Positions 1,334-54,233 of a DNA stretch of 64,000 nt are shown here, piece by piece. Source of the stretch: Thermodesulfobacteriota bacterium (GTDB taxonomy: Bacteria > Desulfobacterota_D > UBA1144 > Nemesobacterales > Mycalebacteriaceae); the NCBI GenBank assembly GCA_965205855.1, contig OZ242184.1:886570-950569 (forward strand), given 5' to 3'. Position numbers and translations under genes: made by a program. The notes beneath the pieces were generated by a model. That model did no database searches. It was not told the origin of the DNA and was given only the letters and a program-made list of their open reading frames with translations. Positions within the stretch are counted from its first letter, which is position 1, and each line of letters starts with the position of its first letter.

Positions 1334-2704
1334 ATGGAAAATCAAGAACTGACAGAATCCGTAAAAAAACACATTAAAAACGGAAACAGGGCGGGAATTT
1401 TCCACGCGCTCTCTGAAATTCATCCTTCTGAAATAGCAAAGATTATAGACCCTCTGGAGACCGAAGAGCAGTCTTTTGTGCTTTCCTCCCTCGGAGTTCA
1501 AATATCTTCGGAAGTCATACCAGAGATGGACGAGAATGTCCGCGAAGAACTGCTTTCCAGACTTGATGAACAGCAGATAGCCGATATTGCCGGGAATATG
1601 GATTCGGACGACGCGGCGGATCTCATACAGGAACTGCCTGAAGAAAAAGCCGAAGAGGTTCTTTCCAAAATAGACCCCGAAGAGCTCAGGGAAGTTGAGC
1701 CTCTGCTCAAATACCCCGATGACTCCGCGGGCGGAATCATGCAAACAGAAGTTCTCACTGGAGGCACGGAGTCACCGGTCAGGGAAACCGTTGAGCGGAT
1801 TAGAGAACTCTCCCGTTCAAGAGAGATTGAGGAATACCAGAGAGTCTATGTGGTTGACGACCTGGACAAACTGGTTGGAATGGTCTCCCTTGGAAAACTC
1901 GCGATTTCGGACTCGGCGGCACCTCTGCGCGACATTATGGAGTCGGCAGAGATCACCCTGTCTCCGCTTACGGATCAGGAGGAAACCGCCGTTTTGTTCC
2001 GGAAATACAATCTGCTTTCCGCTCCCGTAATAGACGAAGACGGAAAACTTCTCGGCAGAATAACCGGCGACGACATTATGGATGTCATATCCGAGGAAGC
2101 CGAGGAAGACATATACCAGTTGGTCGGACTGGGAGACCATTTACACCCGATACATACTCCCACCGCGGAAAGAATTAAAGTCAGAATACCCTGGATTATT
2201 CTTACGCTTCTGGGAGAGCTTCTCATAGCGTTTGTGGTTCTGCACAACTTCCAGGTTACGCTTGAGCAGTTTGCCATCCTTGCCGCTTTTATGCCGGCGA
2301 TTATGGCGGCGGGCGGAAACGTCGGGGTTCAGACAAACACGGTTATCATAAGGTCGCTGGGAATGGAAACCATCAGAGGTAGCGGGCAGATATTGTCCAT
2401 CCTCCTCGCTGAAATAAAAGTCGGGTTCATCCTGGGAGTGATATGCGGAGTTATAGGGGCCATTACAGTGGAGCTTATAAATACCAAACCGGAACAGATA
2501 GACAACCTCGCGGTTGGCGCCACGGTTTTTATAGCCATGATTTCGGCAACAGTCGCCACATCTTCAATAGGGGTTTTTCTCCCGATAGTTTTGAAAAAAC
2601 TTAACATAGACCCCGCGGCTTCATCCGGGCCCTTCCTGATGATGTTCAATGACATACTTGGTTCGGTTTTCTACCTCTTTTTGGGAACATTGTTGCTGTT
2701 TTGA
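1334..2704 (+). CDS. mgtE: Magnesium transporter MgtE.
   Basis: It has an acidic MgtE-N domain, tandem CBS-like region and a C-terminal 5-TM MgtE membrane domain, at 456 aa. Confidence 0.85.
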   Translation: MENQELTESVKKHIKNGNRAGIFHALSEIHPSEIAKIIDPLETEEQSFVLSSLGVQISSEVIPEMDENVREELLSRLDEQQIADIAGNMDSDDAADLIQELPEEKAEEVLSKIDPEELREVEPLLKYPDDSAGGIMQTEVLTGGTESPVRETVERIRELSRSREIEEYQRVYVVDDLDKLVGMVSLGKLAISDSAAPLRDIMESAEITLSPLTDQEETAVLFRKYNLLSAPVIDEDGKLLGRITGDDIMDVISEEAEEDIYQLVGLGDHLHPIHTPTAERIKVRIPWIILTLLGELLIAFVVLHNFQVTLEQFAILAAFMPAIMAAGGNVGVQTNTVIIRSLGMETIRGSGQILSILLAEIKVGFILGVICGVIGAITVELINTKPEQIDNLAVGATVFIAMISATVATSSIGVFLPIVLKKLNIDPAASSGPFLMMFNDILGSVFYLFLGTLLLF

Positions 2705-3414
2705 CAAACCGCAATATAAAAAGCTGCGAGGCTTTGGTTATAAAAAAAACTCCGCTCGGCGAATCCGATATCGCGGTTGTGTTTTTCACAAAAGAGTTCG
2801 GCAAGCTCAGAGCGACGGCAAAGAATGCGGTTTCGAGCAGAAAAAGATTCGGCGGTCGGCTTGAACTTTTCACCCGTCTGAAAATTGAACTGAGAAAGAC
2901 CCTCGCGGGTACGACAACGCTGGAAAGCGCGGAATTGATAAAGAGTTTTGAAGATGTGGTAAAAGACATGAGAATCTTTCTCAAGGCAAACTGCATTGTT
3001 GAGTTTATAGACGCGGCACTACCGGAAAACGAAGAGCCGTGTGAAATAATGTTCACTGAAGCGCTGAAAGCCTTTTCATCAATGGAAAAAGGAGACGGGA
3101 TTGCGGCGATGATAAAATTCCAAATGGTCTCTCTTGAAACCCTCGGATACGGAGCGGATTTGTCGCGTTGTGGCGAGTGCGAAAGAAATGATTTCGCACG
3201 TGGGTCGCTGGTTTTTTCGACCGGTCTTTTCCTGTGCGACGAGTGCGGACGCAAAGAGGTAGCAAAGCCCGCGAAGAAAATCATGCGCGCAAACGCCCTC
3301 GTAGAAGACGAAGACGCGTTTGAAACCATCAACTGCCTGAACGCTTTCTTTCAATATCAGACGGGAAAAATATTGAAATCCGCGAAAGTTCTGGAGAGTA
3401 TGTTGCTGATATGA
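2701..3414 (+). CDS. recO: DNA repair protein RecO.
   Basis: It has an N-terminal OB-fold-like region and a C-terminal Cys4 zinc motif (CGECE...CDECG), at 237 aa, with a 4-nt overlap with mgtE. Confidence 0.7.
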   Translation: MTNRNIKSCEALVIKKTPLGESDIAVVFFTKEFGKLRATAKNAVSSRKRFGGRLELFTRLKIELRKTLAGTTTLESAELIKSFEDVVKDMRIFLKANCIVEFIDAALPENEEPCEIMFTEALKAFSSMEKGDGIAAMIKFQMVSLETLGYGADLSRCGECERNDFARGSLVFSTGLFLCDECGRKEVAKPAKKIMRANALVEDEDAFETINCLNAFFQYQTGKILKSAKVLESMLLI

Positions 3415-4622
3415 GCGCTGCAAAGTTAAAAAAAAATTCTCCCGTTTCGGTTCCAGGGTTTCTGTTCAGTTCGCTTTCGTGCGGAATAAAAAAAGGCGGA
3501 AAGCCCGATCTCGCGCTTATCTATGCGGAGAAACCCGCGGTCACGGCGGCGATATTCACAAAAAACAGACTCAAGGCCGCTCCGGTTCTTCTGGGAATGA
3601 AGCGCGTAAAACAGGGAAAATGCCAAGCGCTTTTGATAAACAGCGGACATGCGAACGCGATAACCGGAAAGGAAGGCGGCAAAGCGGCGGAATTGACCAC
3701 ACGTGCTCTCGCGGGCAAATTAAAAATTCCCCCCGGCCTTGTCATACCTTCGTCAACGGGACTGATTGGCGGAAGGTTTCCTTCCGGAAAAATTGTAAAA
3801 GCGGTTCCGCGCCTGATTTCACAACTTTCCGCAAGCGGAGCAGACAAAACGGCGCGCGCGATAATGACAACCGACCGGTTTTCAAAAATCTCTTCAAGAA
3901 AAATTAAAATCGGCGGACTTGCGGGAACCGTCTGCGCAATTGGAAAAGGCGCGGGGATGATTGCGCCTGACATGGCGACAATGCTTTGTTTTGTTCTGAC
4001 CGACATAAATATTTCAAAAACTTTCTCCGGAAAAATATTGCGAAAAGCCGCCGATGGCTCATTCAACCGCATAATTGTGGACGGCGATATGTCAACAAAC
4101 GATTCGGTGTTTCTTCTTTCAAGCGGAGAGCTGGGAAACAAAACCCTCGCGCCCGAAAGCACGGACAGCAAACGTTTTGACAAAGCCGTTTGCGAGGTGT
4201 GTTTTGACATCGCGCAAATGATAGTCAGGGACGGCGAAGGGGCGACAAAGACCGCGCGTATTGAAGTTGAAGGAGCAAAAAATGACCGTGATGCGGATAA
4301 AGTCGCGAGGGCTGTGGGTGGGTCTGTCCTTGTAAAATGCGCGCTTTTCGGAGAAGACCCTAATTTTGGCAGATTTGCTGCGGCTGCGGGGAGGTCCGGA
4401 GCGAATTTCAATCCCGCAAAAATGGATATTTTTATCGGCGCACTGAGGGTTGTAAGCGGCGGAAAAGAAATGACAAATGCTGAAAAAAAAGCCGCGGAAA
4501 TAATGAAAAAGGATGATTTGATAATAAAAATCCGCCTTTTCGAAGGAAAAGGAAAAGCGTTTACGCTTGTGTCAGACCTATCACTTGACTATGTGAAACT
4601 GAACTCGGAATATAGGAGTTAA
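3411..4622 (+). CDS. argJ: Bifunctional glutamate N-acetyltransferase / amino-acid acetyltransferase ArgJ.
   Basis: It carries the ArgJ fold signature with the autoprocessing ATML site (PDMATMLCFV), at 403 aa. Confidence 0.85.
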   Translation: MSAAKLKKNSPVSVPGFLFSSLSCGIKKGGKPDLALIYAEKPAVTAAIFTKNRLKAAPVLLGMKRVKQGKCQALLINSGHANAITGKEGGKAAELTTRALAGKLKIPPGLVIPSSTGLIGGRFPSGKIVKAVPRLISQLSASGADKTARAIMTTDRFSKISSRKIKIGGLAGTVCAIGKGAGMIAPDMATMLCFVLTDINISKTFSGKILRKAADGSFNRIIVDGDMSTNDSVFLLSSGELGNKTLAPESTDSKRFDKAVCEVCFDIAQMIVRDGEGATKTARIEVEGAKNDRDADKVARAVGGSVLVKCALFGEDPNFGRFAAAAGRSGANFNPAKMDIFIGALRVVSGGKEMTNAEKKAAEIMKKDDLIIKIRLFEGKGKAFTLVSDLSLDYVKLNSEYRS

Positions 4623-4627
4623 GTGCC

Positions 4628-4650
4628 GCCTGAAAATCAGGCAATTATTC
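4628..4650. terminator. Candidate bidirectional terminator hairpin between convergent argJ and pyrD.
   Basis: The sequence GCCTGA-AAA-TCAGGC forms a short stem-loop followed by an A/T-rich stretch; the stem is weak. Confidence 0.25.
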
Positions 4651-5742
4651 CGTCCCCACAATTTCCGCAACAGAGTCAACCCCCTCCCTTTCCATAAAAC
4701 GCGCGATGCCCCTGTTGATTTGAGACGCGACACCGGAGCCCTCTCCCCTTATTGCCGTAAATACCTGAACGGCATTCGCTCCGGCTTTGATTTTCTCAAG
4801 AGCGGTTTTCGTATCCTTTACCCCGCCAGAGCCGATAATTGTCATTTTCCCTCCGGTCTGCGAGCGGATGTATCTAATCCGGTTTGTTGAGAGTTTTCTG
4901 TAACCCTCATCATCACCGCTTATTCCGCCGCTTTCGTCCTTCCATCTTGCGCCGTATTTTGATTTTATCCCGGAAGAACTGGTTGTGTTCGTGGCAATAA
5001 TGCCCGATGCGCCAGTTGTTTCAACCGCTTCAATCACCTCGTCTGTTTCAGAATGTGAAATCTCAGGAGATATTTTCACATAAACAGGAATTTTTTTGTC
5101 TTGTGAGGCAATTGTAACGACACTTTGAAGTATTTGATAAAGTGCATCTCTGCGCTGTAAATCCCTTAATCCCGGCGTATTCGGGGAGCTGACATTAACG
5201 GCGAAATATGACGCGAACGGAAGCAGTTTCCGAGCAACCGCCGCATGGTCTTTCGGAGCGTTTTCCGATGGAACTCCTCTGTTGAAACCGATGCTTATTC
5301 CTATGGGAATTGGGAACGGAGCAGTGTTTTGAAGGTTTTGGGCAACCCCCCCTGCGCCCGGGCTGTTAAAACCGAGCCGATTCAGGAACACTCCGGGGGC
5401 CAGAGAGAAAAGGCGCGGTTTCGGATTTCCGGGTTGGGGATGAAGGGTTACCGAACCAATTTCCACGCAAGAAAAACCGAGAGCGTAGATACCGGAAATT
5501 GCCCTTCCCTTTTTGTCCCAACCCGCCCCGACAATAAGCGGGTTTTCAAGGCGCAGACCGTCAATCTCAACCTCAAGCCGCTTATCTTTGAACCTTCTCC
5601 CGCTGTTTGCGGCAAGCTCGGCAAGCAAAAGCGTAATTCGCGTTTTAGCGGCAAAATGCAACCCTTCAACTGCAAGAAAATGAAGGGTTTCGGAATCTAA
5701 TCTGTCAAGAAACGGGCTTACAAAATTTTTATAGATTGACAT
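4645..5742 (-). CDS. pyrD: Dihydroorotate dehydrogenase (quinone), class 2.
   Basis: It has an N-terminal membrane-association helix and a TIM-barrel with FMN-binding motifs (GFNSPG, IIATNTT, GGV). Confidence 0.85.
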   Translation of the reverse strand: MSIYKNFVSPFLDRLDSETLHFLAVEGLHFAAKTRITLLLAELAANSGRRFKDKRLEVEIDGLRLENPLIVGAGWDKKGRAISGIYALGFSCVEIGSVTLHPQPGNPKPRLFSLAPGVFLNRLGFNSPGAGGVAQNLQNTAPFPIPIGISIGFNRGVPSENAPKDHAAVARKLLPFASYFAVNVSSPNTPGLRDLQRRDALYQILQSVVTIASQDKKIPVYVKISPEISHSETDEVIEAVETTGASGIIATNTTSSSGIKSKYGARWKDESGGISGDDEGYRKLSTNRIRYIRSQTGGKMTIIGSGGVKDTKTALEKIKAGANAVQVFTAIRGEGSGVASQINRGIARFMEREGVDSVAEIVGTE

Positions 5743-42446: not shown

Positions 42447-42764
42447 CTACCCTTTTATACCGGTTATGCGAACCGATGTGTATCTCTGCCGGTGTCCGGC
42501 TTTAAGTCTGTATTTTTTGCGTCTTTTGAATTTAAAAACGGTAATTTTAGGTCCTTTCTTCTGAGAGACGATTTCGCCTTTAACTTCCGCTCCGTCAACA
42601 ACGGGAGTACCCACGCGCGCCTCACCCTCTCCGTCCGAAACCATAAGCACATCGGGAAATCCGATCGTGTCTCCGGGGCTACCCTCGATTTTTTCTATGT
42701 CAAGAACATCTCCGGATTTGACCAAGTACTGTCTGTTTCCTGTTCTTATTACTGCCTGCTGCAT
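42447..42764 (-). CDS. rplU: 50S ribosomal protein L21.
   Basis: It starts MQQAVIRTGNRQY and is 105 aa, lying 12 nt upstream of rpmA. Confidence 0.9.
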   Translation of the reverse strand: MQQAVIRTGNRQYLVKSGDVLDIEKIEGSPGDTIGFPDVLMVSDGEGEARVGTPVVDGAEVKGEIVSQKKGPKITVFKFKRRKKYRLKAGHRQRYTSVRITGIKG

Positions 42765-42788: not shown

Positions 42789-43547
42789 TCAATTATGCCA
42801 CAAAAAGGGATGGAGTGTCAAACTATACGGCGACCGCCTGATAGTCGGGGAGTTCACCCATTGTTTTCCCTCAAGAGCGCGTCCCGTCTTCTTTTTGTTC
42901 ACACCGCCCCATTGTTTGAAGAAAAACGGAACCCCGCTTTCAACGCAGTTGTCCCTGATTTCCGTAACCCATTCCTCTTTCATCGGTCTTGCGCCGGGGC
43001 CGGACTCTCCACCGACAATGACCCAGTCTATGCCTGACAAATTGAGGTTTGGAAACGGGGCAAGCAACGGTTCAAGAGAAAGAAACTTCACGCAAGCATC
43101 GGTCTGTTTTAAAACTTCTGTACGGGAAAGATATTTCTCGGACTCTACGCTTGTTCCCATCCAGATGTTGGAAGTCCAGTGCAGGTGTTTGTTCGCCTTC
43201 ACAACCCTTTCCGGTCTTTTTGTGAGAACCTGAAAAGTGTGTTGAGATGCTTCGTTCATAACTTCAAAAACGGACATAATGAATTTTGCGGGAACATCCT
43301 TGTGGAACAAATCGCTCATTGAATTGACAAAAACTATTTTCGGTTTTTTCCATTTAAGCGGGTCTTTCAAAGTGTGTTCATGAGTGGTGAGTTTGAAACC
43401 GTTTCTGTATTTCTCCATCCCTTGAGCGTGAAGCCGCTTTGCCATCCGCTCGGCGTAGCAGTATTTGCAACCGTGGCTGATTTTTGAACAACCGGTAATG
43501 GGGTTCCATGTTGTGTGAGTCCATCCTATTTTGGAGGGTTGGGTCAT
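42789..43547 (-). CDS. Phage Gp37/Gp68 (DUF5131)-like three-Cys protein.
   Basis: Its N-terminus is [26 protein letters not shown] (C-x6-C-x2-C). The start ATG overlaps the res stop (TAATG). Confidence 0.55.
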
Positions 43548-46090
43548 TACTGTTTGTTGATAACACCGTTTATATCGTCCCGCCAGCTGTCTTCAAACAT
43601 CATCCTGAAAGTAGCGGGCGTCTTATTGATGGCCATTTCGCCTCTGTCAAGGGCGATCCTGTATGTTTTTTCAAGCGTGTCGAGCAATTTTTTCTTGTAA
43701 CTCGTATCTTCGCTGCCTTTCAGGTGGATGCCCTTTGTTTCCAGAATTAGCAGTTTTCCGTTATCTTTTCGGCAGGCCACAAAATCGGGATACACGCGCT
43801 GGCGTCGCCAGCCTTGCAGATAGTACGCTTGTCTTGCAGCTATTCTGTGCCACCAGTAGATGGCGTTGCTCTTATCCAGATAAAGCGCAAAATCCCGCTC
43901 CAGACCGTTAAAACTACTTTCATAAACAGGTTCAAAAAGGTTTTGCTGTATAGGTCTGCCATGTTCGCTCTGTAATGATCTTTCTTGACTGGAAACAAAA
44001 ACCTCGAACGACTTGCTCAATTCGTAGTCCAGTCGCTGGTCGGTCTCAAGGTGAAACCGAATCACATTCCGCCCAACCTTTTCCCGAAACACCGCTTCGG
44101 CCTCGTCGTCTATGGCCTTGTTCACGCGGCGGCTCAATTCTTCGGAAAGGTAAATTCGGTTATTCAACAATTTGCTTTCATCGTGTTTCCTGTTTTTATG
44201 TGTTTGAATAAACCCCTCCGCCATGCGCGCCGCCTGCCACGGATTGGGCACCTTGTCCACAAGCCGCCGAACAAAATAATCCACGCTCAGCCGCTTTTCG
44301 CTGTCAGGGATTTGTTCCGAAGCCTTAACCTGCCCTTGAATGTCCACCGTGGTTTTGATCTCCTGAGTGATGTCTCTATCATCCAGATTCACCGCTGCGC
44401 CCGCGTCAATGGTGTCCCAATCAATCGCGCTTAATATATCGCGGTCGTAATCAATGGGGCGCCAGGTGCGCCCCGCTTTGTGTAACACCTGCGGGAGAAA
44501 AATTTTCAATGGCCGGTATTTACCACGACGTTTGACGGTGGTCGGTTTCGGTGCATCGCCCTCGCCATGCCCGTGAACAAAATCGCCAAGCCCGGTCAGC
44601 CCTTCATTCTCCAGGCCGGCCTTCACGCCTTTGATCGCCTTGCCTACGACCTGATTATAGCAATAGATATAACACTGGTTCAGCGCATCGCCTTGTGCGA
44701 TTCTGCGTGCATGGGGTTGCCGCATCACCCGACCGACCATTTGCGTGATGGCGGTGGTTGCGGTGGTGTTATCCAGCAAGGCAAGCAGATATGCAAACGA
44801 GCAATCCCAGCCTTCTTTCAGCGCGTCTTTGGTGATAATCCAGCGCACCTCGCTTGTCTCGCTCAACAAATCCTCACCCGCAAGTTCCTTGCGTTCCGAT
44901 GATTGAATCCTGATGTGATTCTCCGGCACAGCAAGATTTTGTATCAGGTATTCGCGCGCATCCTCCGAATGAATTTTTCCTTGCCCTCTTTGTTTTGCGC
45001 CCGTTCTTTCCACCCTGACCAAAGCGATGGGTCGGATATGGCGGTTTTCCTGTTCCTGTAATTTTTGCGCCGCACTTTCAAGCTCATCCAGTTTTTCCTG
45101 TGTTTTGGCAAGCGTGTGTTCCCAGTCGGAATTGCTGAAACTGTGAATCTCTATCGGCAGTTTGATCATCTCCTCGTCCTGGAGGTCGCGGCCCGATGTG
45201 TTGACCAGGATATTGCTGATGCCGATTTTCGGCGTGGCGGACAGTTCAAGCACAAAACGGGGGTTGAGCCGGTTGACGGATTTGACAAACTCCTGGTTGT
45301 TTTGATTATTCGGTCCATATGCTTTATGCGCTTCGTCCAAAATCACCGTGGGACGAATCAGTTTCAGCACATTGATCAGGCTTTGCTTAACCCAGTCGCC
45401 GGGTGCATTTTTCTCCAGGTCGGGATGGTGTTCCGAAAGCGTTGCATTGGCCGCCGCGTCATCCTGCTCGGGAAAAAACGACATATACCCGCTGCTGTCG
45501 CGGAATATTTTGAGAAACTCCCTGTTCTTTTGCCGGTTGGCGGAGGGTAGCATCAGCAGCATAATGCAAAGATAGTTTTCGGTATCCTGTCGGGTAAAGC
45601 GGTCGGTTTTTTGCAACAATTTGACCCTGCCGCCAGACATATGTTCGAGCATCTGCCGGTAGGTATGTTCGCGGGTGTGGAACGCCTGGCGGGTCTGCTC
45701 GTAGATCGCCCGGGTCGGCACAATCCACAACACAAAGCCGGTATCCCGCTTGATCCGCTCAAGCGTGGCCACGCCCAACAGCGTCTTGCCGCCGCCGGTC
45801 GGCACCTTCAGGCAAACATGCGGGATGGGTTCGCCGGATGCCGCAGTGCGGGAAATGTAGCCGGGAACTGCCATGTCACCGTCTTGGGAAATGCCGGGGA
45901 GGATATTTTGATCTTTCAGCGCCTTCCAAGCTAAGAGGGGATAGTTTTGCAGTTCTTCAGGAATATCAATCCCCGACTCTTCAAGAGCTTTGCCCGCCTT
46001 TTCACTAGTCAGCCGCGCTTCCTTGAGCGCGTCCAGCCAGCGGTCTAACTGTTCAAGAGCTTGTTGCTGATAGTTTTTCAGGGAGAGCAT
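43547..46090 (-). CDS. res: Type III restriction enzyme Res subunit (SF2 helicase plus C-terminal nuclease).
   Basis: It has Walker A (VPTGGGKTL), DEAH (ILDEAHKA), motif VI (QMVGRVMRQ) and a C-terminal PD-(D/E)xK-like ILETKG. The start is set at MLSLKNY (46090), 1 nt after the upstream ORF stop. Confidence 0.75.
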
Positions 46091-46091
46091 A

Positions 46092-46649
46092 TCACGGATT
46101 TTTTGAGTCAGTACTGTCTGAATTATTTGGCAAATTGATGATTTCAACAGGCACATTCCTTTTACCAACTGCAAGACCGACAGCGTAGTTACGGATAATA
46201 GTTTGATCCATTTCCATATCCGCATAGCCTTGTGGATAGTACGAACCCCTTAGAATTTCCATCTGTTCTACCTTAAAATCTAGCACCTTGGCCATTGAGC
46301 TAAGCATCTCCGTGAGCAATTCCATTTGCTCCTTGCCGAGTCGTTCATAGTGCGAACGAGAATCATTTTCTTCGTTAGGCCTCTTAGCATGCGTTTCACC
46401 ATAATGCTTGCGGAGTGCTGCCCATTTTTCTATAACTTCTTTATGCTTAACAAATTCTATCTCAACCAGATTAATGGCTCCGACATAATCAGGTGATAAA
46501 CGCGCATTTCGTGTACGCATTAACGTCTTGAATATATCCATTTTTCGCGCCTTTTGTTCGCGCCATCTGTCAAGAAGACCGTTAACCCAGACAGCTGCGC
46601 AAGGACCGATTAAGATGGCTGCAATGGTGATGATAGAATATGAATTCAT
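46092..46649 (-). CDS. Membrane-anchored hypothetical protein embedded between mod and res.
   Basis: It has one N-terminal TM helix (IITIAAILIGPCAAVWVNGLL) followed by a charged helical domain. It lies 2 nt after the mod stop and 1 nt before the res start, and is visibly AT-richer than its flanks. Confidence 0.6.
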   Translation of the reverse strand: MNSYSIITIAAILIGPCAAVWVNGLLDRWREQKARKMDIFKTLMRTRNARLSPDYVGAINLVEIEFVKHKEVIEKWAALRKHYGETHAKRPNEENDSRSHYERLGKEQMELLTEMLSSMAKVLDFKVEQMEILRGSYYPQGYADMEMDQTIIRNYAVGLAVGKRNVPVEIINLPNNSDSTDSKNP

Positions 46650-46651
46650 GT

Positions 46652-48208
46652 TTATCTTATACCCTCATATGGTAATTGGGCAAAAGTTATCCCCATCTCG
46701 GTTAATGCTTTTTGTCCCATGAATTTGTGAGTGGCGAACACCACCGCGGTTTTCTTTTTTGCCTTGGCCTGTTTGGCGATGCGTTCGGCGCGGGTGCTGT
46801 TCAAAGCGGAATCCGCACTGCGCAGAAAATCAAGGTTCGGCTCGTAGATCAGGTAAAACATTTTGTCACCTGCTTCATAAAATAAACCGTCTTTGCCACG
46901 CCTTGTTTTCGGGTTGAGTTTATGCGGCGATTGTCCGCTTGCGGTATAGATCAGATGGCGGGCAAAGGTTTCATAGCCCGGCAGGTTCCTGCCGGTGAGC
47001 ATTTTTTCAATGCTGATTTCATCGCCCAGTGTGCAATAGGCAAAACTGCCGCCCAGTCCGTTTTTTAGGTTCTCATCCTTTGCTTTTGGTATGCCCTTTA
47101 TCACACGGCGAACGCGCTCGGCGGTGATTTTGTCGGCGTAGTCTTCGCATTCCACCAAGATAAATTTGCGGTTGCCGCCGTCTTCCTTGTTCAGCGCAAG
47201 CACGGCGTGGGCAGTGGTGCCGGAACCGGCGAAGGAGTCGAGGATAATGGCGTTTTTTGTCGTTGCCAGTTGTAAAATCTTTTTCACAAGGGAAATTGGT
47301 TTGGGGTTTTGGAACTGATTAGAACCAAACACCGTCCTCAACTCGATTGTGCCGTTGGTTGTTGTACCTACATCATCCCACCAAGTGCTAGGCGTTAACC
47401 CCCTTCGGCGTGCCTCTGACAAAAAACGTTTGCGCTGAGGTCTGGAACTATTTCTCTTTCCGAATACGATTCTATTGTCTGCAAGAAGCTCCTCAAATTT
47501 GTTCAAATCGTTTTTCCAGCAATTACCTTCAGTGGGGTAAAATATTTCTTTTGTTTTAGGGTTTCTTATCGGATACATCTGATTAGGTCGAACCCCACCA
47601 GCCTCAAATGGATCCGCCTTCCATGGGCCTCTCGGATCATTATCAGGATTTTTGAATCCTTCTAAAATGGCAGGAAGTTTGAAATCTTTTCTAATGGTTT
47701 TTAATACATTCAGTTGTTTAGCATAAGCTATATTATGAGTGTGTGATATTGATACTAATGCAGGATTTGTAATTGATTTTGTGCTATGCCACACAAAATC
47801 TGCAACAAAATTCTCCTCCCCAAAAATCTCATCCATGACCATCCGCAGGCGGTGCTGTTCATTGTCGTCGATGGAAATAAAAATTACGCCATCTTCGGCC
47901 AGCAATTCTCTTAACAACTGCAATCTTGGCCACATCATGCACAGCCATTTGTCGTGCCGCTCCAGGTCTTCGCCATCCACCGGACTTTTGCCTTTCAGCC
48001 ACGCCTTCATCATCGGGCTGTTGACATTGTCGTTATAGACCCATTTCTCATTGCCGGTGTTGTAGGGCGGGTCGATGTAAATGCAGTTGACGCGGCTGGC
48101 ATAGCGCGGCAGCAACGCCTTGAGCGCGTGCAGATTGTCGCCGTGGATAATCAGATTGTCATCAAGGGAAGGGTTACCCCCCCATTTTTCGCTGAAAGAG
48201 ATTTTTTA
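46652..48208 (-). pseudogene. mod: Type III R-M Mod subunit (beta-class N6-adenine methyltransferase) with its 5' end disrupted at a G7 tract; candidate phase-variable gene in the OFF state.
   Basis: DPPY (motif IV) precedes ILDSFAGSGTTAHAV (motif I). Mod-like sequence (DDNLIIHGDNLHALKA) continues upstream of the annotated TTG (48115) to a TAA at about 48208, with no ATG. An upstream ATG ORF (48291..48151) is in another frame and crosses the G7 tract at about 48177-48183. Confidence 0.7.
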
Positions 48209-48284
48209 GTGTCTATCTCAAGTGTCCTGGACGGAACAGTCAGGTGGTGCGCATAAATGAGTTGCTTCCCTTTGAAATCAATTG

Positions 48285-48448
48285 TCGGCATTGAAAACCC
48301 CGTAAATCAGTTTGATATTGGCTTTGAAGATACCCGATTTACTCCCCCAACCTAAACCCCTCAACCTCCCGATGCACCGCCCCTTCCCGTCTCAATTCAC
48401 TCTCCATCAAACAAACTCTTTCAGAAGCAAAACCAAGTTCAAACTGCG
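48285..48448. repeat. Direct repeat copy A of the thpR 3'-terminal sequence (about 164 nt).
   Basis: It is near-identical to copy B and about 90% identical to copy C over tcagtttgatattggctttgaa...caaactgcg. It abuts the mod upstream ATG on one side and the IS fragment on the other. Confidence 0.8.
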
Positions 48449-48768
48449 CCCGCGGTGACATGGAGAACCGGATCAAGGATCAGCAGTTGGATTTGTTTGC
48501 GGATCGCACCTCTTGTCACCGCTGGTGGCCCAACCAGTGCCGGCAGTTGCTGTCAGGGTTGGCTTACACGTTGATTGAGGGATTGCGGCGCCTTGCACTA
48601 CAGGGCACCGAACTGGCCAAAGCCAGTCCTCACAGGATCAGGCTGACACTGCTTAAAATCGGTGCCGTGATCATCCGCAACACGCGCCGCATCCGCCTAC
48701 TGATGAGCAGTGCTTATCCCCATCAGGCGTTGTTCCGCACGGCAGCCTATCGGCTCAACTCCCCATAA
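48449..48768 (+). mobile_element. C-terminal fragment (about 100 aa) of an IS1380-like DDE transposase; IS remnant.
   Basis: ENRIKDQQLDLFADRTSCHRWWPNQ ... LAYTL ... RLTLLKIGA matches the conserved C-terminus of IS1380-family transposases. There is no N-terminal catalytic part, and it starts exactly where repeat A ends. Confidence 0.55.
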
Positions 48769-48959: not shown

Positions 48960-50099
48960 TTATTTTCGGATGAGAAACAGAAATTCTTTATTCGGATCGC
49001 TGGATTCCCGCAACCACTCATTTGTCCATTTCATGGCGGCCATCACATTTTTTTTATACTCAATTTTTGCGCTATCCACAATTTCTCCGTTACGCGTTAT
49101 CACCTCGTTTAATTCCTCCGCGGTTGCTCGTCCACCGGAACTGTAAGAGAGCAAGATCCATCGGCAAGGAGTTTCCTTCAGCAAACGCTCTATGGCTTCC
49201 ACCACAACCAATCGTCCTGATTTGCTTCTACGAAATTCCTCGAACACTGAAGTCGCCACTTTATCGGATGTGTCTTTTCTGCGGAGGGACTTGCCAAATA
49301 GCACGGGATGATCATTTTTACATATGGTCGTCCACAAATGATAATATGAAGCGTACCGAACCCTTGAAGGTGGCATTTTTTCATTGTTTGACCCATACGG
49401 AGGATCAAAATAAGCAAGATCGGCGTCCGCTTCGGGAAGTACCTTAAAAACATCACCACACAGCACCGTGTTTTCGATTTCATTTTTCCACAACCGTGGC
49501 ACTTTCAATTGTAAATTTTTGAATGAACGCGGCGACCAATCTTTTAAATAAGAAACAAAATGACCAAGAGTACTGTCTATCTCATTCAACCCTAAAATCA
49601 GGCTTGTCAATGCCACACTTTTGGAAACGTCATCCAGCATCAAGGCATCGATCTCTCTCCTGATTGCATCAAGTTTTCTTGTATTTTTTTTCTGCCAAGG
49701 CTTTTTGGTTCCATCCTTCTGAATAGCATTATGGCAAGTTCCAGAGCGAACATCACCACCGTAATTCTCAGTAAACCATCCGTCTTCCGGAGGAAGCGAA
49801 TTTAAATGATCAATAAGAGGTTGGTATATTTTCGGGTTTTTTAAGTTTTTCAAATAGCACGTGGCAAAAATTCTTGACCATTCGGAAATATCATTTGATA
49901 CCACGCGATATCCTGCTTGTGCAAAAGATTGACTTACTCTGGTGGAGCCTGAAAAACCGTCAAAAATGCTTTTTGCTCCGGTCTGTTTTGACAGATTAAA
50001 AATATGTGGAAGCAGTTTCAGTTTTGAGCCTGCGTAATTGATGCCTTCGGTTTTTGGAACATCAATCCAATCACGAAAAATTTGAACTTGCCCTTGCAT
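48960..50099 (-). CDS. D12-class (Dam-family) N6-adenine DNA methyltransferase.
   Basis: It has the N-terminal INYAGSKLKLLP motif (compare Dam WAGGK..LL) and FDPPYGS (motif IV), at 379 aa. Confidence 0.7.
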   Translation of the reverse strand: MQGQVQIFRDWIDVPKTEGINYAGSKLKLLPHIFNLSKQTGAKSIFDGFSGSTRVSQSFAQAGYRVVSNDISEWSRIFATCYLKNLKNPKIYQPLIDHLNSLPPEDGWFTENYGGDVRSGTCHNAIQKDGTKKPWQKKNTRKLDAIRREIDALMLDDVSKSVALTSLILGLNEIDSTLGHFVSYLKDWSPRSFKNLQLKVPRLWKNEIENTVLCGDVFKVLPEADADLAYFDPPYGSNNEKMPPSRVRYASYYHLWTTICKNDHPVLFGKSLRRKDTSDKVATSVFEEFRRSKSGRLVVVEAIERLLKETPCRWILLSYSSGGRATAEELNEVITRNGEIVDSAKIEYKKNVMAAMKWTNEWLRESSDPNKEFLFLIRK

Positions 50100-50776
50100 T
50101 ATGTAACTTTAAAGCGGGAAGCCTGCTTGAGTCTAACAATATCATCTTTCACTTTTGCAAGAGCCTCATTCTGGCCGAAATCAGAAGAAACAAGCGCGTG
50201 AGAAAATAGTTGGACCAAGATAGGATTGTGAGAATAATCAACCCATCCATTGGTTATGCTATCAAAATAGTTTAAACCACTTTTTGTATGAGTCCAAAGC
50301 CCTCGCTGGAGGGCATTGGCGGTTGCGCTTCCATAACGCACCTCGCAAATATAAGAATCGCTTGCATCGTAGAAACGATATACTGGGTGCTTTCTACCTT
50401 TCTTTTTTGTTTCTTTTACTATTTTCACCGTTTCAGTTTCAGCGCGGTGGTAATCGAAGACAAGAATATTACACTGTCGATTTTTTTCGTCATAAATTAA
50501 TGGCAAAACATTTACATTGTAAAAATCCGAGAAAGCGGGGTCGGCAAGCACTCGTTGTACATTTTTCTTGCCCACTATTTCATCCCCCTCTTGTGCCAAT
50601 CTCGGAAACATTTTGAAATTCTTGTCGGTTGAAAGTTGAAGGGGACCATCACCATACGCTTTGATGCTAACAGGAAATTCAGCTTCGGTTACTTCATTTA
50701 TTATTTTGATGTCTTCTTCCCGAGATTTGGCTCTGTATAAATCTTTGCCAACATGGATCGAGCGAAAATCATACAT
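50099..50776 (-). CDS. Candidate Type II restriction endonuclease (C-terminal part?), paired with the Dam-like methyltransferase.
   Basis: Its stop overlaps the methyltransferase start. The 225-aa product has no recognised motif, and a 69-aa ORF abuts it 1 nt upstream in another frame. Confidence 0.35.
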   Translation of the reverse strand: MYDFRSIHVGKDLYRAKSREEDIKIINEVTEAEFPVSIKAYGDGPLQLSTDKNFKMFPRLAQEGDEIVGKKNVQRVLADPAFSDFYNVNVLPLIYDEKNRQCNILVFDYHRAETETVKIVKETKKKGRKHPVYRFYDASDSYICEVRYGSATANALQRGLWTHTKSGLNYFDSITNGWVDYSHNPILVQLFSHALVSSDFGQNEALAKVKDDIVRLKQASRFKVT

Positions 50777-52050: not shown

Positions 52051-52258
52051 TCAGTTTGATATTGGCTTTGAAAATACCCGATTTACTCCCCCAACCTAAA
52101 ACCCTCAACCTCCCGATGCACCGCCCCTTCTCGTCTCAATTCACTCTCCATCAAACAAACCCTGTCAGAAACAAACTCAAGTTTAAACTGCGGCAATTCG
52201 GGCAGTTTTATCCTTTTTCTTATCCGCCCTATCGTAATGTGTGGTATAAAATCCCGTT
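52051..52258. repeat. Repeat copy C: the resident 3' end of thpR plus about 30 nt downstream, the source sequence of copies A and B.
   Basis: It overlaps thpR codons for ...HITIGRIRKRIKLPELPQFKLEFVSDRVCLMESELRREGAVHREVEGFRLGE*. Confidence 0.8.
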
Positions 52259-52664
52259 TCTCCGGCTCAAAACCGATTGTCTCAAGTTTTGAGTCAATCT
52301 CGTCCTTGAGACTGAAAAACGCGTCCCCGGATTCCGCAATCACCGCAAGCGTCTGCGTATAACGGCGGAGTATAAGCGCCTCAACCCCGTCCGTTGTGAT
52401 GTCGAGCGGCACAAACCGCTTGCAACAACTTTCAATAACCCCGCACAGTTCGGGAATCAATTCGCGGCGCGTCTCTCCGAGAAACCTTAAAGTAATATGG
52501 AATTTTTCAGACAGCTCCCAACGCACATGGCGGAGCGAGCGTATTGCGGCGGAACGGGATTTTATCACCCTTTTTGCTTTTTCGGGAACTTCAAGAGAAA
52601 TAAAAAGCCGGACGGTAGCGCTGTCAACTCTCAAGCTCAACATTCCAGTATGAGGCATCAACAA
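52083..52664 (-). CDS. thpR: RNA 2',3'-cyclic phosphodiesterase (2H family, ThpR/LigT).
   Basis: It has two HxT/S motifs (HITLRFLGE and HITIGRI), at 193 aa. Confidence 0.8.
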   Translation of the reverse strand: MLMPHTGMLSLRVDSATVRLFISLEVPEKAKRVIKSRSAAIRSLRHVRWELSEKFHITLRFLGETRRELIPELCGVIESCCKRFVPLDITTDGVEALILRRYTQTLAVIAESGDAFFSLKDEIDSKLETIGFEPEKRDFIPHITIGRIRKRIKLPELPQFKLEFVSDRVCLMESELRREGAVHREVEGFRLGE

Positions 52665-53232
52665 AACTTACAAACGGCTCCCATTCTTTGTAGCGGATTG
52701 GGTGCGCGTAAATGTTTGCAAACGGTCCCCACTGCGGTTCGGAGGGAATTGTGAGCAATTTCATCCTTGCCTGTTCGGGAGTTCTACCGCCTTTTCTGCG
52801 GTTGCACGAGCCGCAGGAGCAGACAACATTGTCCCATCTGCTTTCTCCGCCGTGCGCGCGCGGAATAACATGGTCTATCGTAAGCTCGGTTTTGGAAAAA
52901 TGCTTTCCGCAGTATTGGCATTTACCGCTGTCTCTGCGGAATATGTTGAAGCGCGTAAATCTCGGACGCTTTCTGTGAAATCCGCTGTAACGGAGCAGGA
53001 TTATAACCCTCGGCGCTTTGATGATCCTTGTAACGGTTCTCACATAGTCGCCACGCCCTCCGGCGGCAGAGGCGGCGGAAACCTCCGCCCAACTCTCAAA
53101 ATCAAAAGTCTCGTAGGTTTTTGTTACGGCTTTCGCCTCGCCGCAATAGAGCATCACAAATGCCCGTCGCAAATTGGTAACGGAAACGGGCATATAGTTT
53201 TTGTTCAAAACCAGAACCGGCGAACTCAACAT
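52624..53232 (-). CDS. HNH endonuclease.
   Basis: The HNH motif is CQYCGK ... DHVIPRAHGGESRWDNVVCSCGSCNRRKG. It overlaps the thpR start by 41 nt. Confidence 0.75.
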   Translation of the reverse strand: MLSSPVLVLNKNYMPVSVTNLRRAFVMLYCGEAKAVTKTYETFDFESWAEVSAASAAGGRGDYVRTVTRIIKAPRVIILLRYSGFHRKRPRFTRFNIFRRDSGKCQYCGKHFSKTELTIDHVIPRAHGGESRWDNVVCSCGSCNRRKGGRTPEQARMKLLTIPSEPQWGPFANIYAHPIRYKEWEPFVSFVDASYWNVELES

Positions 53233-53468: not shown

Positions 53469-54233
53469 ATGTATCCGGATCTTTTCAAAGCCGGAGACTT
53501 TACGGTCGGCTCATTCGGCGTTCTTGTCGCTCTGGCGTTTCTTGTCGCCTACATCGTTGCGGCGGGAGAGTTGAAAAGAAAAGGCGCGCCGCCCTCCGCC
53601 GCTCAGGACATGTTTGTGTGGATTTCTTTGTGCTCAATAGTGGGAGCAAAACTGTTCTTTGTCACGGAAAATTTCACATTTGCAGAAATAATCTCAGACC
53701 CCGTTCCGGTTCTTTTTTCGCGCAACGGGCTGACTTTCTACGGCGGTCTGCTCGGCGGGATTGCGGGCGGGATATACGCCGCGCGTAAAAACGGCGTGCA
53801 GGTGCGAAAGGCGCTTGACGCTGTGGCTCCCGCGCTTGCAATCGGCTACGCGATTGGAAGAATCGGCTGCCTACTTGTTGGAGACGACTACGGAACGGCG
53901 TCCGACCTGCCGTGGGCAATGGCGTTTCCAAACGGATATCCGCCCGTGGATTTTACCGTTCATCCGACCCAGATATACGAATCGGTTTTAATGTTCGCGG
54001 TGTTCGCCCTGCTGTGGAGAATCAGGAAAACCGCCATGCCCGACGGACGCCTGTTCGCGCTTTATCTCGCGCTTGCGGGCACAGAGCGGTTTCTCGTTGA
54101 GTTTATAAGAACAACCACCCAAAGCGGATTTGCCGGACTTTCAGTCGCGCAAGTCATTGCCCTTGCGTCAGTAACAATCGGATGTGTGTGGCTTGTCGTT
54201 TCCCGCCCATCGGGTTCGCGCCACGAACTATAA
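53469..54233 (+). CDS. lgt: Prolipoprotein diacylglyceryl transferase.
   Basis: It has the Lgt signature (YGGLLGG ... GRIGCLLVGDDYG ... HPTQIYES) and multiple TM helices. Confidence 0.85.
   Translation: MYPDLFKAGDFTVGSFGVLVALAFLVAYIVAAGELKRKGAPPSAAQDMFVWISLCSIVGAKLFFVTENFTFAEIISDPVPVLFSRNGLTFYGGLLGGIAGGIYAARKNGVQVRKALDAVAPALAIGYAIGRIGCLLVGDDYGTASDLPWAMAFPNGYPPVDFTVHPTQIYESVLMFAVFALLWRIRKTAMPDGRLFALYLALAGTERFLVEFIRTTTQSGFAGLSVAQVIALASVTIGCVWLVVSRPSGSRHEL

What the first reader, a model, noticed from the sequence alone, without database searches (positions are those of the whole stretch)
42789..43547. DUF5131 (phage Gp37/Gp68-like) three-Cys protein translationally coupled to res
The N-terminus [26 protein letters not shown] carries a C-x6-C-x2-C motif reminiscent of non-canonical radical-SAM/Fe-S binding sites. 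I recognise this as the signature of the poorly characterised Gp37/Gp68 family, which in phages and bacteria tends to sit near DNA-methylase genes. Its start overlaps the res stop by 1 nt. Only 24 nt separate its stop from the rplU start, so it is the last gene of the island module.
Basis: partly seen in the sequence, partly recalled or inferred. Interest (0 to 1): 0.6.

Follow-up and report, generated by a model that had tools for sequence, protein, structure and literature searches.

The report
Orphan DUF5131 Fe-S enzyme gene
This is an intact, well-conserved copy of a very common but uncharacterised iron-sulfur (radical-SAM-like) enzyme gene that has lost its usual partner gene and now sits as the last gene behind a restriction enzyme; it is an ordinary member of a family whose function is unknown.

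Summary
ORF 42789-43547 (-) encodes 252 aa, matches Pfam DUF5131 over its full length (E 3.8e-98), and carries C20-x6-C27-x2-C30. These Cys are invariant in close homologs and present in 142-143 of 150 distant cluster representatives. The TAATG overlap with res and the 24-nt gap to rplU are exact.

The interpretation needs correcting.
- The family's real partner is TcmP, adjacent in 65/80 genome loci and 42/80 viral loci. It is predicted here to have an RlmJ-like SAM-methyltransferase fold. No TcmP is present in this 64-kb window.
- DNA methylases are not generally enriched next to DUF5131.
- The closest Res ortholog (72%) has no DUF5131 downstream, so DUF5131 is not a conserved Type III R-M component.
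- In a related contig DUF5131 is also the upstream neighbour of rplU. The rplU promoter lies inside the last 11 codons of the window ORF.
- The gene therefore looks like the older resident, with the mod-DUF6680-res module joined to its start codon.
- dN/dS is 0.08-0.11, equal to rplU, so it is functional.

The parts
42789..43547 (-). DUF5131 (Gp37/Gp68 family) CDS, 252 aa, intact
   Evidence: ORF. Pfam PF07505 E 3.8e-98, full length. PADLOC PDC-M41B 1.7e-117 and PDC-M30B 7.8e-115. PHROG 2045, unknown function. dN/dS 0.08-0.11 against the closest homologs.
43458..43490 (-). Three-Cys motif C20-x6-C27-x2-C30, the predicted [4Fe-4S] ligands
   Evidence: Codons read directly. Invariant in A1 and A2. 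C in 142-143 of 150 distant representatives. This loop has low confidence in the AF2 model, pLDDT <50 for residues 21-33.
42945..42947 (-). Fourth conserved cysteine, C201
   Evidence: Invariant in A1 and A2. C in 124 of 134 non-gap representatives. Role unknown.
43545..43549 (-). TAATG junction: res stop codon overlaps the DUF5131 start codon by 1 nt
   Evidence: No Shine-Dalgarno-like sequence in the 20 nt upstream. No promoter-like site near it. Tight junctions are the family norm with TcmP: 29 of 59 lie within -11..+4 nt.
42789..42836 (-). Non-homologous C-terminal tail (aa 238-252 plus stop), produced by a frame change relative to relatives
   Evidence: Homologs cover about 93% of the query and end near aa 240. 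Nucleotide homology to L082 DUF5131 ends at 42836, and homology to the L082 rplU upstream region starts at 42823. An 8-nt indel is visible in alignment A5.
42792..42821 (-). rplU promoter-like site, TTGACA-18 nt-(TG)CATAAT, inside the last 11 codons of DUF5131
   Evidence: Best promoter-like site of the region, 11/12 matches with an extended -10. Both hexamers are conserved upstream of rplU in L082.
42447..42764 (-). rplU (ribosomal protein L21), downstream neighbour
   Evidence: ORF. 79% aa identity to the L082 gene that carries Pfam Ribosomal_L21p.
43547..46090 (-). Type III restriction subunit res. The real start is probably M46 of the listed ORF, at 46090.
   Evidence: Pfam ResIII. PADLOC REase_III PDLC03653 E 7e-213, matching from aa 48. 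72% identical ortholog in L086 with a homologous native C-terminus.
46092..46649 (-). DUF6680 gene lying between mod and res
   Evidence: Pfam PF20385 E 5.9e-47. No PADLOC, NCBIfam or PHROG hit. Absent from the orthologous operon in L086.
46652..48291 (-). Type III mod gene, frameshifted at a G7 tract (48177-48183)
   Evidence: PADLOC MTase_III E 9e-146, matched from profile position ~55. The sequence shows ATG at 48291 and an in-frame TGA at 48153-48151. Alignment with the intact 543-aa ortholog of L086 shows 5 extra bases at the G tract.

Best explanation
The ORF is a genuine, intact and selectively maintained member of DUF5131 (Gp37/Gp68). This is a very large, horizontally mobile family of TIM-barrel-like Fe-S enzymes related to radical-SAM enzymes of the spore-photoproduct-lyase neighbourhood.

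In most genomes the gene forms a two-gene cassette with TcmP. TcmP is predicted here to have an RlmJ-like SAM-methyltransferase fold plus a winged-helix domain. The window copy is an orphan, with no TcmP within 64 kb.

In this lineage DUF5131 has been the immediate upstream neighbour of rplU, and its 3' end overlaps the rplU promoter. The Type III module mod-DUF6680-res now abuts its start codon. It is therefore transcribed and, through the TAATG overlap, probably translated as the last cistron of that operon. It is not a conserved part of Type III restriction-modification.

Inferred mechanism, not shown: C20, C27 and C30 hold a [4Fe-4S] cluster that reductively cleaves SAM. The resulting 5'-deoxyadenosyl radical acts on a nucleic-acid substrate, most likely DNA. 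In the canonical cassette that substrate is recognised or pre-modified by TcmP. Here the enzyme works alone or with a partner encoded elsewhere.
For: Shown:
- Family membership.
- Cys conservation.
- Family size: 39,694 cluster representatives at E<=1e-3. Spread at 58-68% identity across many phyla and in 176 phage records.
- TcmP (TIGR04474) adjacent in 65/80 genome loci and 42/80 viral loci, plus a DUF5131-TcmP fusion protein, P0146.
- No TcmP in the window by tblastn or HMM.
- In the closest clade TcmP is intact in L083, split in L081, a remnant in L085 and absent in L082. DUF5131 there still has dN/dS 0.08-0.11, against 0.088 for rplU.
- Synteny DUF5131-[2-kb insert]-rplU in L082, and a conserved rplU promoter inside the window ORF's tail.
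- The closest Res ortholog operon lacks DUF5131.

Supporting the radical-SAM or nucleic-acid inference:
- TIGR04471 'radical SAM mobile pair protein A', E 3.3e-24 over residues 17-212.
- The SFLD/RadicalSAM.org subgroup listing, next to spore photoproduct lyase.
Against: - No family member has been characterised, and there is no solved relative by sequence.
- The Cys spacing is not the canonical CX3CX2C, and Pfam Radical_SAM does not hit.
- The TIGR04471 score is far below its cutoff.
- Foldseek finds only generic TIM barrels, none at E<=1e-3.
- The Cys loop is modelled with low confidence.
- A fourth conserved Cys (C201) could mean a fully ligated, non-SAM cluster.
- The nucleic-acid substrate is inferred only from the partner's fold, kinship to SPL and the mobile or defence context.
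- A TcmP gene elsewhere in the genome cannot be excluded.
- The direction of the rearrangement is inferred from only two comparator contigs: whether R-M was inserted next to DUF5131, or was ancestral and lost elsewhere.
Confidence: 0.55

Rival explanations
1. DUF5131 is a functional accessory subunit of this Type III restriction-modification system. For example, it could further modify or repair the Mod-methylated site, with the N6-adenine methylase Mod standing in for the RlmJ-like TcmP.
For: Same strand, 1-nt TAATG overlap with res, and no promoter-like site or Shine-Dalgarno sequence of its own. The closest relatives sit beside N6/N4, MT-A70 or Type III-like methylases. Gordonia phage Bakery has a C5 DNA methylase overlapping DUF5131 by 1 nt. 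TcmP itself has a SAM-methyltransferase fold.
Against: The closest Res and Mod orthologs (72% and 63%) form an operon without DUF5131. Methylases are not enriched around DUF5131 in general, 3/127, or around TcmP-less copies, 1/123. Synteny ties DUF5131 to rplU, not to the R-M genes. In this window mod is frameshifted, yet DUF5131 is under strong purifying selection. There is no profile similarity between TcmP and Mod beyond a non-significant motif I match.
Confidence: 0.15
2. It is a stand-alone anti-phage or conflict enzyme that acts on a small molecule. It could make a modified nucleotide as viperin-like enzymes do, or consume SAM. It would not act on DNA.
Against: PDC systems are candidates only, and no experimental report was found. 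The usual partner has a nucleic-acid-methyltransferase fold with a wHTH domain. The flanks of the cassette are mostly non-defence genes. The viperin similarity is no better than that to other radical-SAM or TIM-barrel proteins.
Confidence: 0.12
3. It is not a radical-SAM enzyme at all. It would be a TIM-barrel protein with a structural or redox Fe-S or Zn site ligated by four cysteines (C20, C27, C30, C201), catalysing non-radical chemistry.
For: The motif spacing is non-canonical and there is no Pfam Radical_SAM hit. A fourth nearly invariant Cys exists. Foldseek sees only generic TIM barrels. Invariant acidic and basic residues (D79, H103, K110, R111, E159, E181) are compatible with acid-base or metal catalysis.
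Confidence: 0.13
4. It is a decaying remnant of a broken TcmP-DUF5131 cassette with no remaining function.
For: The partner gene is missing. The C-terminus is altered by a frame change. The neighbouring mod is frameshifted and an IS remnant lies in the island.
Against: The ORF is intact with a full-length profile match and every invariant residue. dN/dS is 0.08-0.11 at dS of about 1, the same as ribosomal protein L21 across the same two contigs. The altered tail lies beyond the conserved domain.
Confidence: 0.05

Closest known systems
DUF5131 / phage Gp37-Gp68 family (Pfam PF07505; PHROG 2045; PADLOC PDC-M41B and PDC-M30B)
   Same: Full-length HMM match, the same CX6CX2C motif and the same invariant residues. 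58-84% identity to homologs from many phyla.
   Different: It lacks the adjacent TcmP partner found in about 80% of genomic copies. It has a 15-residue non-homologous C-terminal tail. It is joined to a Type III res gene and overlaps the rplU promoter.
TcmP-DUF5131 two-gene cassette (TIGR04474 partner protein)
   Same: The DUF5131 half is orthologous. Tight, overlapping coupling to the upstream gene is also the norm in the cassette.
   Different: Here the upstream gene is res, not TcmP, and no TcmP occurs in 64 kb. In the closest clade TcmP is split, truncated or absent.
Spore photoproduct lyase (radical-SAM DNA repair lyase; PDB 4fhc)
   Different: Only 10% identity. SPL has the canonical CX3CX2C motif (established knowledge), whereas this protein has CX6CX2C. 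There is no sequence-level hit to any PDB chain. Substrate and chemistry are unknown.
Radical SAM mobile pair protein A (NCBIfam TIGR04471)
   Same: Significant homology over residues 17-212, E 3.3e-24. Like DUF5131 it is named as a paired gene of mobile contexts.
   Different: The score of 85.6 bits is far below the 355-bit equivalog cutoff, so this protein is a relative and not a member.
Type III restriction-modification operons with accessory genes
   Same: It lies in one transcription unit with mod and res. Such operons in relatives carry variable cargo genes: four ORFs between mod and res in L086, and M78 peptidase plus DUF4411 in L081.
   Different: DUF5131 lies after res rather than between mod and res. 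It is not found with the closest Res ortholog.

Membership tests
DUF5131 (Pfam PF07505, Gp37/Gp68) | Profile HMM score above the gathering threshold over the full domain | tested here: met
   328.3 bits against a cutoff of 28.9, E 3.8e-98, profile positions 2-243 of 243.
DUF5131 (Pfam PF07505, Gp37/Gp68) | N-terminal three-Cys motif conserved across the family | tested here: met
   C20, C27 and C30 are invariant in 31 and 41 homologs. They are C in 142, 143 and 143 of 150 50%-identity cluster representatives, the rest being gaps or a single Ser.
TcmP-DUF5131 dyad (TIGR04474 partner) | A TcmP gene adjacent to the DUF5131 gene | tested here: not met
   No TcmP in the window: tblastn with 61 TcmP sequences gave a best E of 0.01, and a TcmP HMM on the six-frame translation gave a best E of 1.7. 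The rest of the genome could not be searched.
Radical SAM superfamily | Canonical CX3CX2C cluster motif and a Pfam Radical_SAM (PF04055) match | tested here: not met
   The motif is CX6CX2C. PF04055 is not among the Pfam hits at E<=0.01. The family is nevertheless listed as an SFLD/RadicalSAM.org subgroup.
Radical SAM superfamily | Partial or full (beta/alpha) TIM-barrel core resembling solved radical-SAM enzymes | tested here: inconclusive
Radical SAM superfamily | [4Fe-4S] cluster binding and reductive cleavage of SAM | not testable with these tools
   Needs anaerobic purification, UV-vis or EPR, and a 5'-deoxyadenosine assay.
Radical SAM mobile pair protein A (TIGR04471) | Score above the equivalog cutoff | tested here: not met
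   85.6 bits against 355.
PADLOC candidate systems PDC-M41 / PDC-M30 | B component present | tested here: met
   PDC-M41B E 1.7e-117 and PDC-M30B E 7.8e-115.
PADLOC candidate systems PDC-M41 / PDC-M30 | A component encoded alongside | tested here: inconclusive
   None of the five upstream neighbours matched a PDC-M41A or PDC-M30A model.
Type III restriction-modification system (as an accessory component) | Conserved co-occurrence with orthologous res and mod genes | tested here: not met
   The only full-length close Res relative found (L086, 72%) has mod-4 ORFs-res followed by an unrelated gene on the other strand. A DUF5131 HMM finds nothing in L086 or L087.

The most novel reading that the evidence does not exclude
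DUF5131 is a DNA-acting radical-SAM enzyme. In this lineage it has exchanged its dedicated RlmJ-like partner TcmP for the Type III Mod methylase. The operon would then install or repair a radical-SAM-dependent DNA modification on top of m6A, making it a new class of R-M accessory. It would be only the third radical-SAM enzyme known to work on DNA, after spore photoproduct lyase and phage M6 gp53 (PMC8989533).
Probability: 0.08. Interest if true: 0.75.

Novelty: new member of a known kind. Interest (0 to 1): 0.3.

Why it matters
DUF5131 is one of the largest uncharacterised radical-SAM-related families: about 40,000 clusters at 50% identity. It is present in many phyla and in cultured myco-, Gordonia and Burkholderia phages, and it is listed as a candidate defence component. 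Its chemistry is unknown.

This locus does not reveal that chemistry, but it adds three usable facts:
- The enzyme is kept under ribosomal-protein-level purifying selection after its usual partner TcmP has decayed or vanished. TcmP is therefore not strictly required, or it acts in trans.
- The partner has a nucleic-acid N-methyltransferase (RlmJ-like) fold, which points experiments towards DNA or RNA substrates.
- The apparent link to Type III restriction here is a product of defence-island rearrangement next to rplU. It is not a conserved system, which guards against over-annotating it as an R-M subunit.

Tried and rejected
- Search for TcmP in the window by tblastn and by HMM: nothing.
- Test of whether methylases are the general neighbours of DUF5131: negative. 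127 flanks gave a top family at 3 hits, and 123 neighbours of TcmP-less copies gave 1 C5 methylase. PADLOC on the same flanks showed only scattered R-M, TIR, Fic and PDC hits.
- Profile comparison of TcmP with the window's Mod and with DUF6680, to see whether either could be a cryptic TcmP: not significant, probabilities 0.5% and 0.2%.
- Sequence searches of the PDB with the protein and with the family profile: no relative. The same for TcmP.
- Foldseek against the PDB: only generic TIM barrels. The AFDB50 library was unavailable.
- Look-up of the window's own protein in the contig index, to reach the rest of the genome: not on record. Cluster look-up gave no accession or organism.
- The metagenome scan for Res relatives returned only two loci, so the statement about Res orthologs rests mainly on one operon.
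- Literature: DUF5131 appears in one paper as a table entry. TcmP appears only in gene lists, and PDC-M30 only in survey tables. No functional study was found.
- The pseudogene idea was rejected on dN/dS.
- A TcmP remnant fused to the end of res was rejected, because the Res C-terminus is homologous to that of L086.

Full report
OBSERVATION. The minus-strand ORF 42789..43547 encodes 252 aa beginning [32 protein letters not shown]. I read the cysteine codons in the raw sequence: C20 at 43490-43488, C27 at 43469-43467, C30 at 43460-43458. The motif is C-x6-C-x2-C as stated. The upstream 892-aa ORF ends with TAA at 43549-43547, and the DUF5131 ATG is 43547-43545, giving TAATG with one shared base. 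The DUF5131 stop codon (42791-42789) is 24 nt from the ATG of the next ORF at 42764. That ORF is L21: it is 79% identical to a gene carrying Pfam Ribosomal_L21p in a related contig.

FAMILY. Pfam places the protein in DUF5131 (PF07505) with E 3.8e-98 over profile positions 2-243 of 243. PADLOC matches the candidate-system components PDC-M41B (1.7e-117) and PDC-M30B (7.8e-115). PHROGs gives phrog_2045, 'unknown function'. NCBIfam gives only sub-threshold homology to 'radical SAM mobile pair protein A' (TIGR04471, E 3.3e-24, 85.6 bits against a cutoff of 355), covering residues 17-212 and thus the Cys motif.

The family is enormous. There are 39,694 representatives of 50%-identity clusters at E<=1e-3 and 8,837 at E<=1e-30. 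Relatives at 58-68% identity occur in Planctomycetota, Chloroflexota, Bacteroidota, Acidobacteriota, CPR and others. It occurs in 176 deposited phage genomes, chiefly Mycobacterium, Gordonia and Burkholderia phages.

C20, C27 and C30 are invariant in alignments of 31 and 41 homologs. They are Cys in 142, 143 and 143 of 150 distant representatives, the remainder being N-terminal gaps or a single Ser. A fourth Cys (C201) is conserved in 124 of 134 non-gap representatives. D79, H103, K110, R111, E159 and E181 are nearly universal.

IS IT RADICAL SAM? The evidence is moderate.
- For: the homology to TIGR04471, and more weakly to TIGR04470.
- For: DUF5131 is listed as a subgroup in SFLD/RadicalSAM.org (Megacluster-5-2), beside spore photoproduct lyase at 5-3 (PMC9477430).
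- Against: the spacing is not CX3CX2C, and Pfam Radical_SAM does not hit.
- Against: the Cys loop is modelled at pLDDT below 50.
- Against: no PDB chain is detectable by sequence, even with the family profile.

No paper in the searchable library reports a function.

THE REAL PARTNER. In 80 genomic loci carrying relatives, clustering of neighbours gave one dominant family. It lies immediately upstream in 40 and immediately downstream in 12 of the 72 loci where the DUF5131 gene was called. NCBIfam identifies it as TcmP, TIGR04474 (E down to 2e-64). With an HMM built from those sequences, 65 of 80 genomic loci and 42 of 80 viral loci contain it. One cluster representative is a DUF5131-TcmP fusion of 558 aa. 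The TcmP stop and DUF5131 start are within -11..+4 nt in 29 of 59 same-strand pairs, including TAATG overlaps. Tight coupling to the upstream gene is thus the family norm.

THIS LOCUS. Reading 5' to 3' on the minus strand, the island upstream of rplU holds the following.
- A Type II REase (50099-50776) and a D12 methylase (48960-50099) at 39-42% GC.
- On the opposite strand, an IS (DDE_Tnp_1_4) C-terminal remnant (48460-48768, +).
- Type III mod (48291-46652), DUF6680 (46649-46092), res (46090-43547) and DUF5131.

No TcmP is present anywhere in the 64 kb. No promoter-like site or Shine-Dalgarno sequence precedes DUF5131. Its expression must therefore depend on the res transcript and probably on termination-reinitiation at TAATG. 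This last step is inference.

ORIGIN. Four lines of evidence show that DUF5131 is not a conserved part of the Type III module.
1. The closest Res relative found (L086, 72% over 843 aa, with a 63% identical, intact 543-aa Mod) lies in an operon mod-226-93-98-562 aa-res, followed by an unrelated gene on the other strand. It has no DUF5131 and no DUF6680. The Res C-terminus of the window is homologous to that of L086, so no TcmP remnant is fused to it.
2. The closest DUF5131 homolog (P0002, 84%) lies on contig L082 in the order DUF5131 - AAA_21 - RloB - rplU, divergent from MT-A70, N6_N4 methylase and HNH genes. Nucleotide alignment shows window 43547-42836 matching L082 DUF5131 at 81%. Window 42823-41650 matches the L082 rplU region at 75%, with the 2-kb AAA_21/RloB segment absent from the window. 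DUF5131 next to rplU is therefore shared by the two lineages while everything upstream differs.
3. The strongest promoter-like site of the region is TTGACA-18-CATAAT with a TG extension (42821-42792). It lies in the last 11 codons of the window ORF, and both hexamers are conserved before rplU in L082. In L082 the DUF5131 stop codon lies in a copy of the GTTTGACA sequence. In the window an 8-nt indel shifts the frame, so the ORF runs 12 codons further. This explains why the protein is 252 rather than about 240 aa and why residues 238-252 match nothing.
4. In the closest clade TcmP is intact upstream in L083 (77% homolog), split into two ORFs in L081 (83%), reduced to a C-terminal remnant in L085 (82%), and absent in L082 and the window.

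Despite these losses, DUF5131 shows dN/dS of 0.08-0.11 at dS of about 1.0-1.3 in all pairwise comparisons within this clade. This is the same as rplU between the window and L082 (0.088). The gene is therefore functional without an adjacent TcmP. A TcmP elsewhere in the genome cannot be excluded, because I could not reach the rest of the contig.

MECHANISM.
- Shown: family membership, conservation of the Cys triad, a barrel-like fold, the usual MTase-fold partner, loss of that partner here, purifying selection, and dependence on the res transcript.
- Inferred, in decreasing certainty: the three Cys bind a [4Fe-4S] cluster; the enzyme cleaves SAM to a 5'-deoxyadenosyl radical; the substrate is a nucleic acid, probably DNA.
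- The nucleic-acid inference rests on three things: the nearest characterised structural and classification neighbour is a DNA repair lyase; the partner resembles rRNA and tRNA amino-methyltransferases and carries a wHTH domain; and the cassette travels on phages and in defence islands.

Only two radical-SAM enzymes are reported to act on DNA (PMC8989533). The family as a whole is therefore worth an experiment, but this copy is not special evidence for that idea.

RIVALS.
- An R-M accessory role is suggested by the operon structure and by methylase neighbours in the close clade. It is contradicted by the Res ortholog operon, the lack of general methylase association, the rplU synteny, and the fact that mod is frameshifted here.
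- A small-molecule defence enzyme (viperin-like or SAM-consuming) is compatible with the PADLOC candidate hits. It does not explain the MTase/wHTH partner.
- A non-radical four-Cys metalloprotein is not excluded by any computation here.
- A dead remnant is excluded by the selection analysis.

VERDICT. This is a new member of a known, uncharacterised family in an unusual but explicable context: an orphan of the TcmP dyad, captured as the last cistron of a Type III operon and overlapping the rplU promoter. Interest is modest at 0.3. The most novel reading not excluded is a DNA-directed radical-SAM accessory of Type III R-M, which I rate at about 8% probability.

Noticed in passing
window 48177-48183 (within mod, 46652-48291, minus strand): The Type III mod gene is out of frame at a G7 homopolymer. 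ATG at 48291 runs into TGA at 48153-48151, and the conserved frame (SLDDNLIIHGDNLHALK...DPPYN) continues in another frame. G8 or G5 would restore a ~545-aa Mod like the intact 543-aa ortholog in L086. Possible causes are phase variation, a homopolymer sequencing error, or a pseudogene.
   Followed up: partly
window 48460-48768 (+): C-terminal remnant (about 100 of 435 profile positions) of a DDE_Tnp_1_4 transposase. It lies between the Type II and Type III R-M modules and marks the island as a mosaic.
   Followed up: no
window 48960-50776 (-): Complete-looking Type II R-M pair at 39-42% GC against about 52-56% in the flanking core genes. PADLOC gives REase_II E 1e-99 and a D12-class MTase_II E 7e-162.
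   Followed up: no
window 46092-46649 (-): A DUF6680 gene is wedged between mod and res, with 2-nt and 1-nt gaps. It has no hit in PADLOC, NCBIfam or PHROGs. Related Type III operons carry different cargo at this position: four ORFs in L086 2841-5998, and Peptidase_M78 plus DUF4411 in L081.
   Followed up: partly
L082 4853-6932, compared with window 42823-42836: In the related contig a 2-kb AAA_21 + RloB pair is inserted between DUF5131 and rplU. GTTTGACA, the rplU -35 region, is present at both ends of the insert, which suggests insertion at the promoter with a short duplication.
   Followed up: partly
L081 9132-9996; L085 683-1060: The TcmP upstream of close DUF5131 homologs is split into two ORFs (HMM positions 11-91 and 85-261) in L081. 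In L085 it is reduced to a C-terminal remnant (HMM 212-262). This suggests repeated partner decay, although metagenome assembly error is possible for L081.
   Followed up: partly
L169 (Gordonia phage Bakery NC_055804.1) 2421-4975: A 526-aa C5 cytosine DNA methylase (gp63) overlaps a 324-aa DUF5131 protein (gp64) by 1 nt, inside the replication/recombination gene block. This is a methylase-to-DUF5131 coupling without TcmP.
   Followed up: partly
protein P0146 (558 aa); also P0145, P0156, P0157, P0233, P0252: P0146 is a natural DUF5131-TcmP fusion. Several other representatives carry 250-750 extra residues with no Pfam or NCBIfam match, for example P0252 with DUF5131 at its C-terminus (residues 727-1002 of 1008).
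   Followed up: partly
window 52083-53232 (-): An HNH endonuclease (52624-53232) overlaps a LigT/2'-5' RNA ligase-like phosphoesterase gene (52083-52664). They lie at the far edge of the low-GC island, before lgt (53469-54233, +).
   Followed up: no
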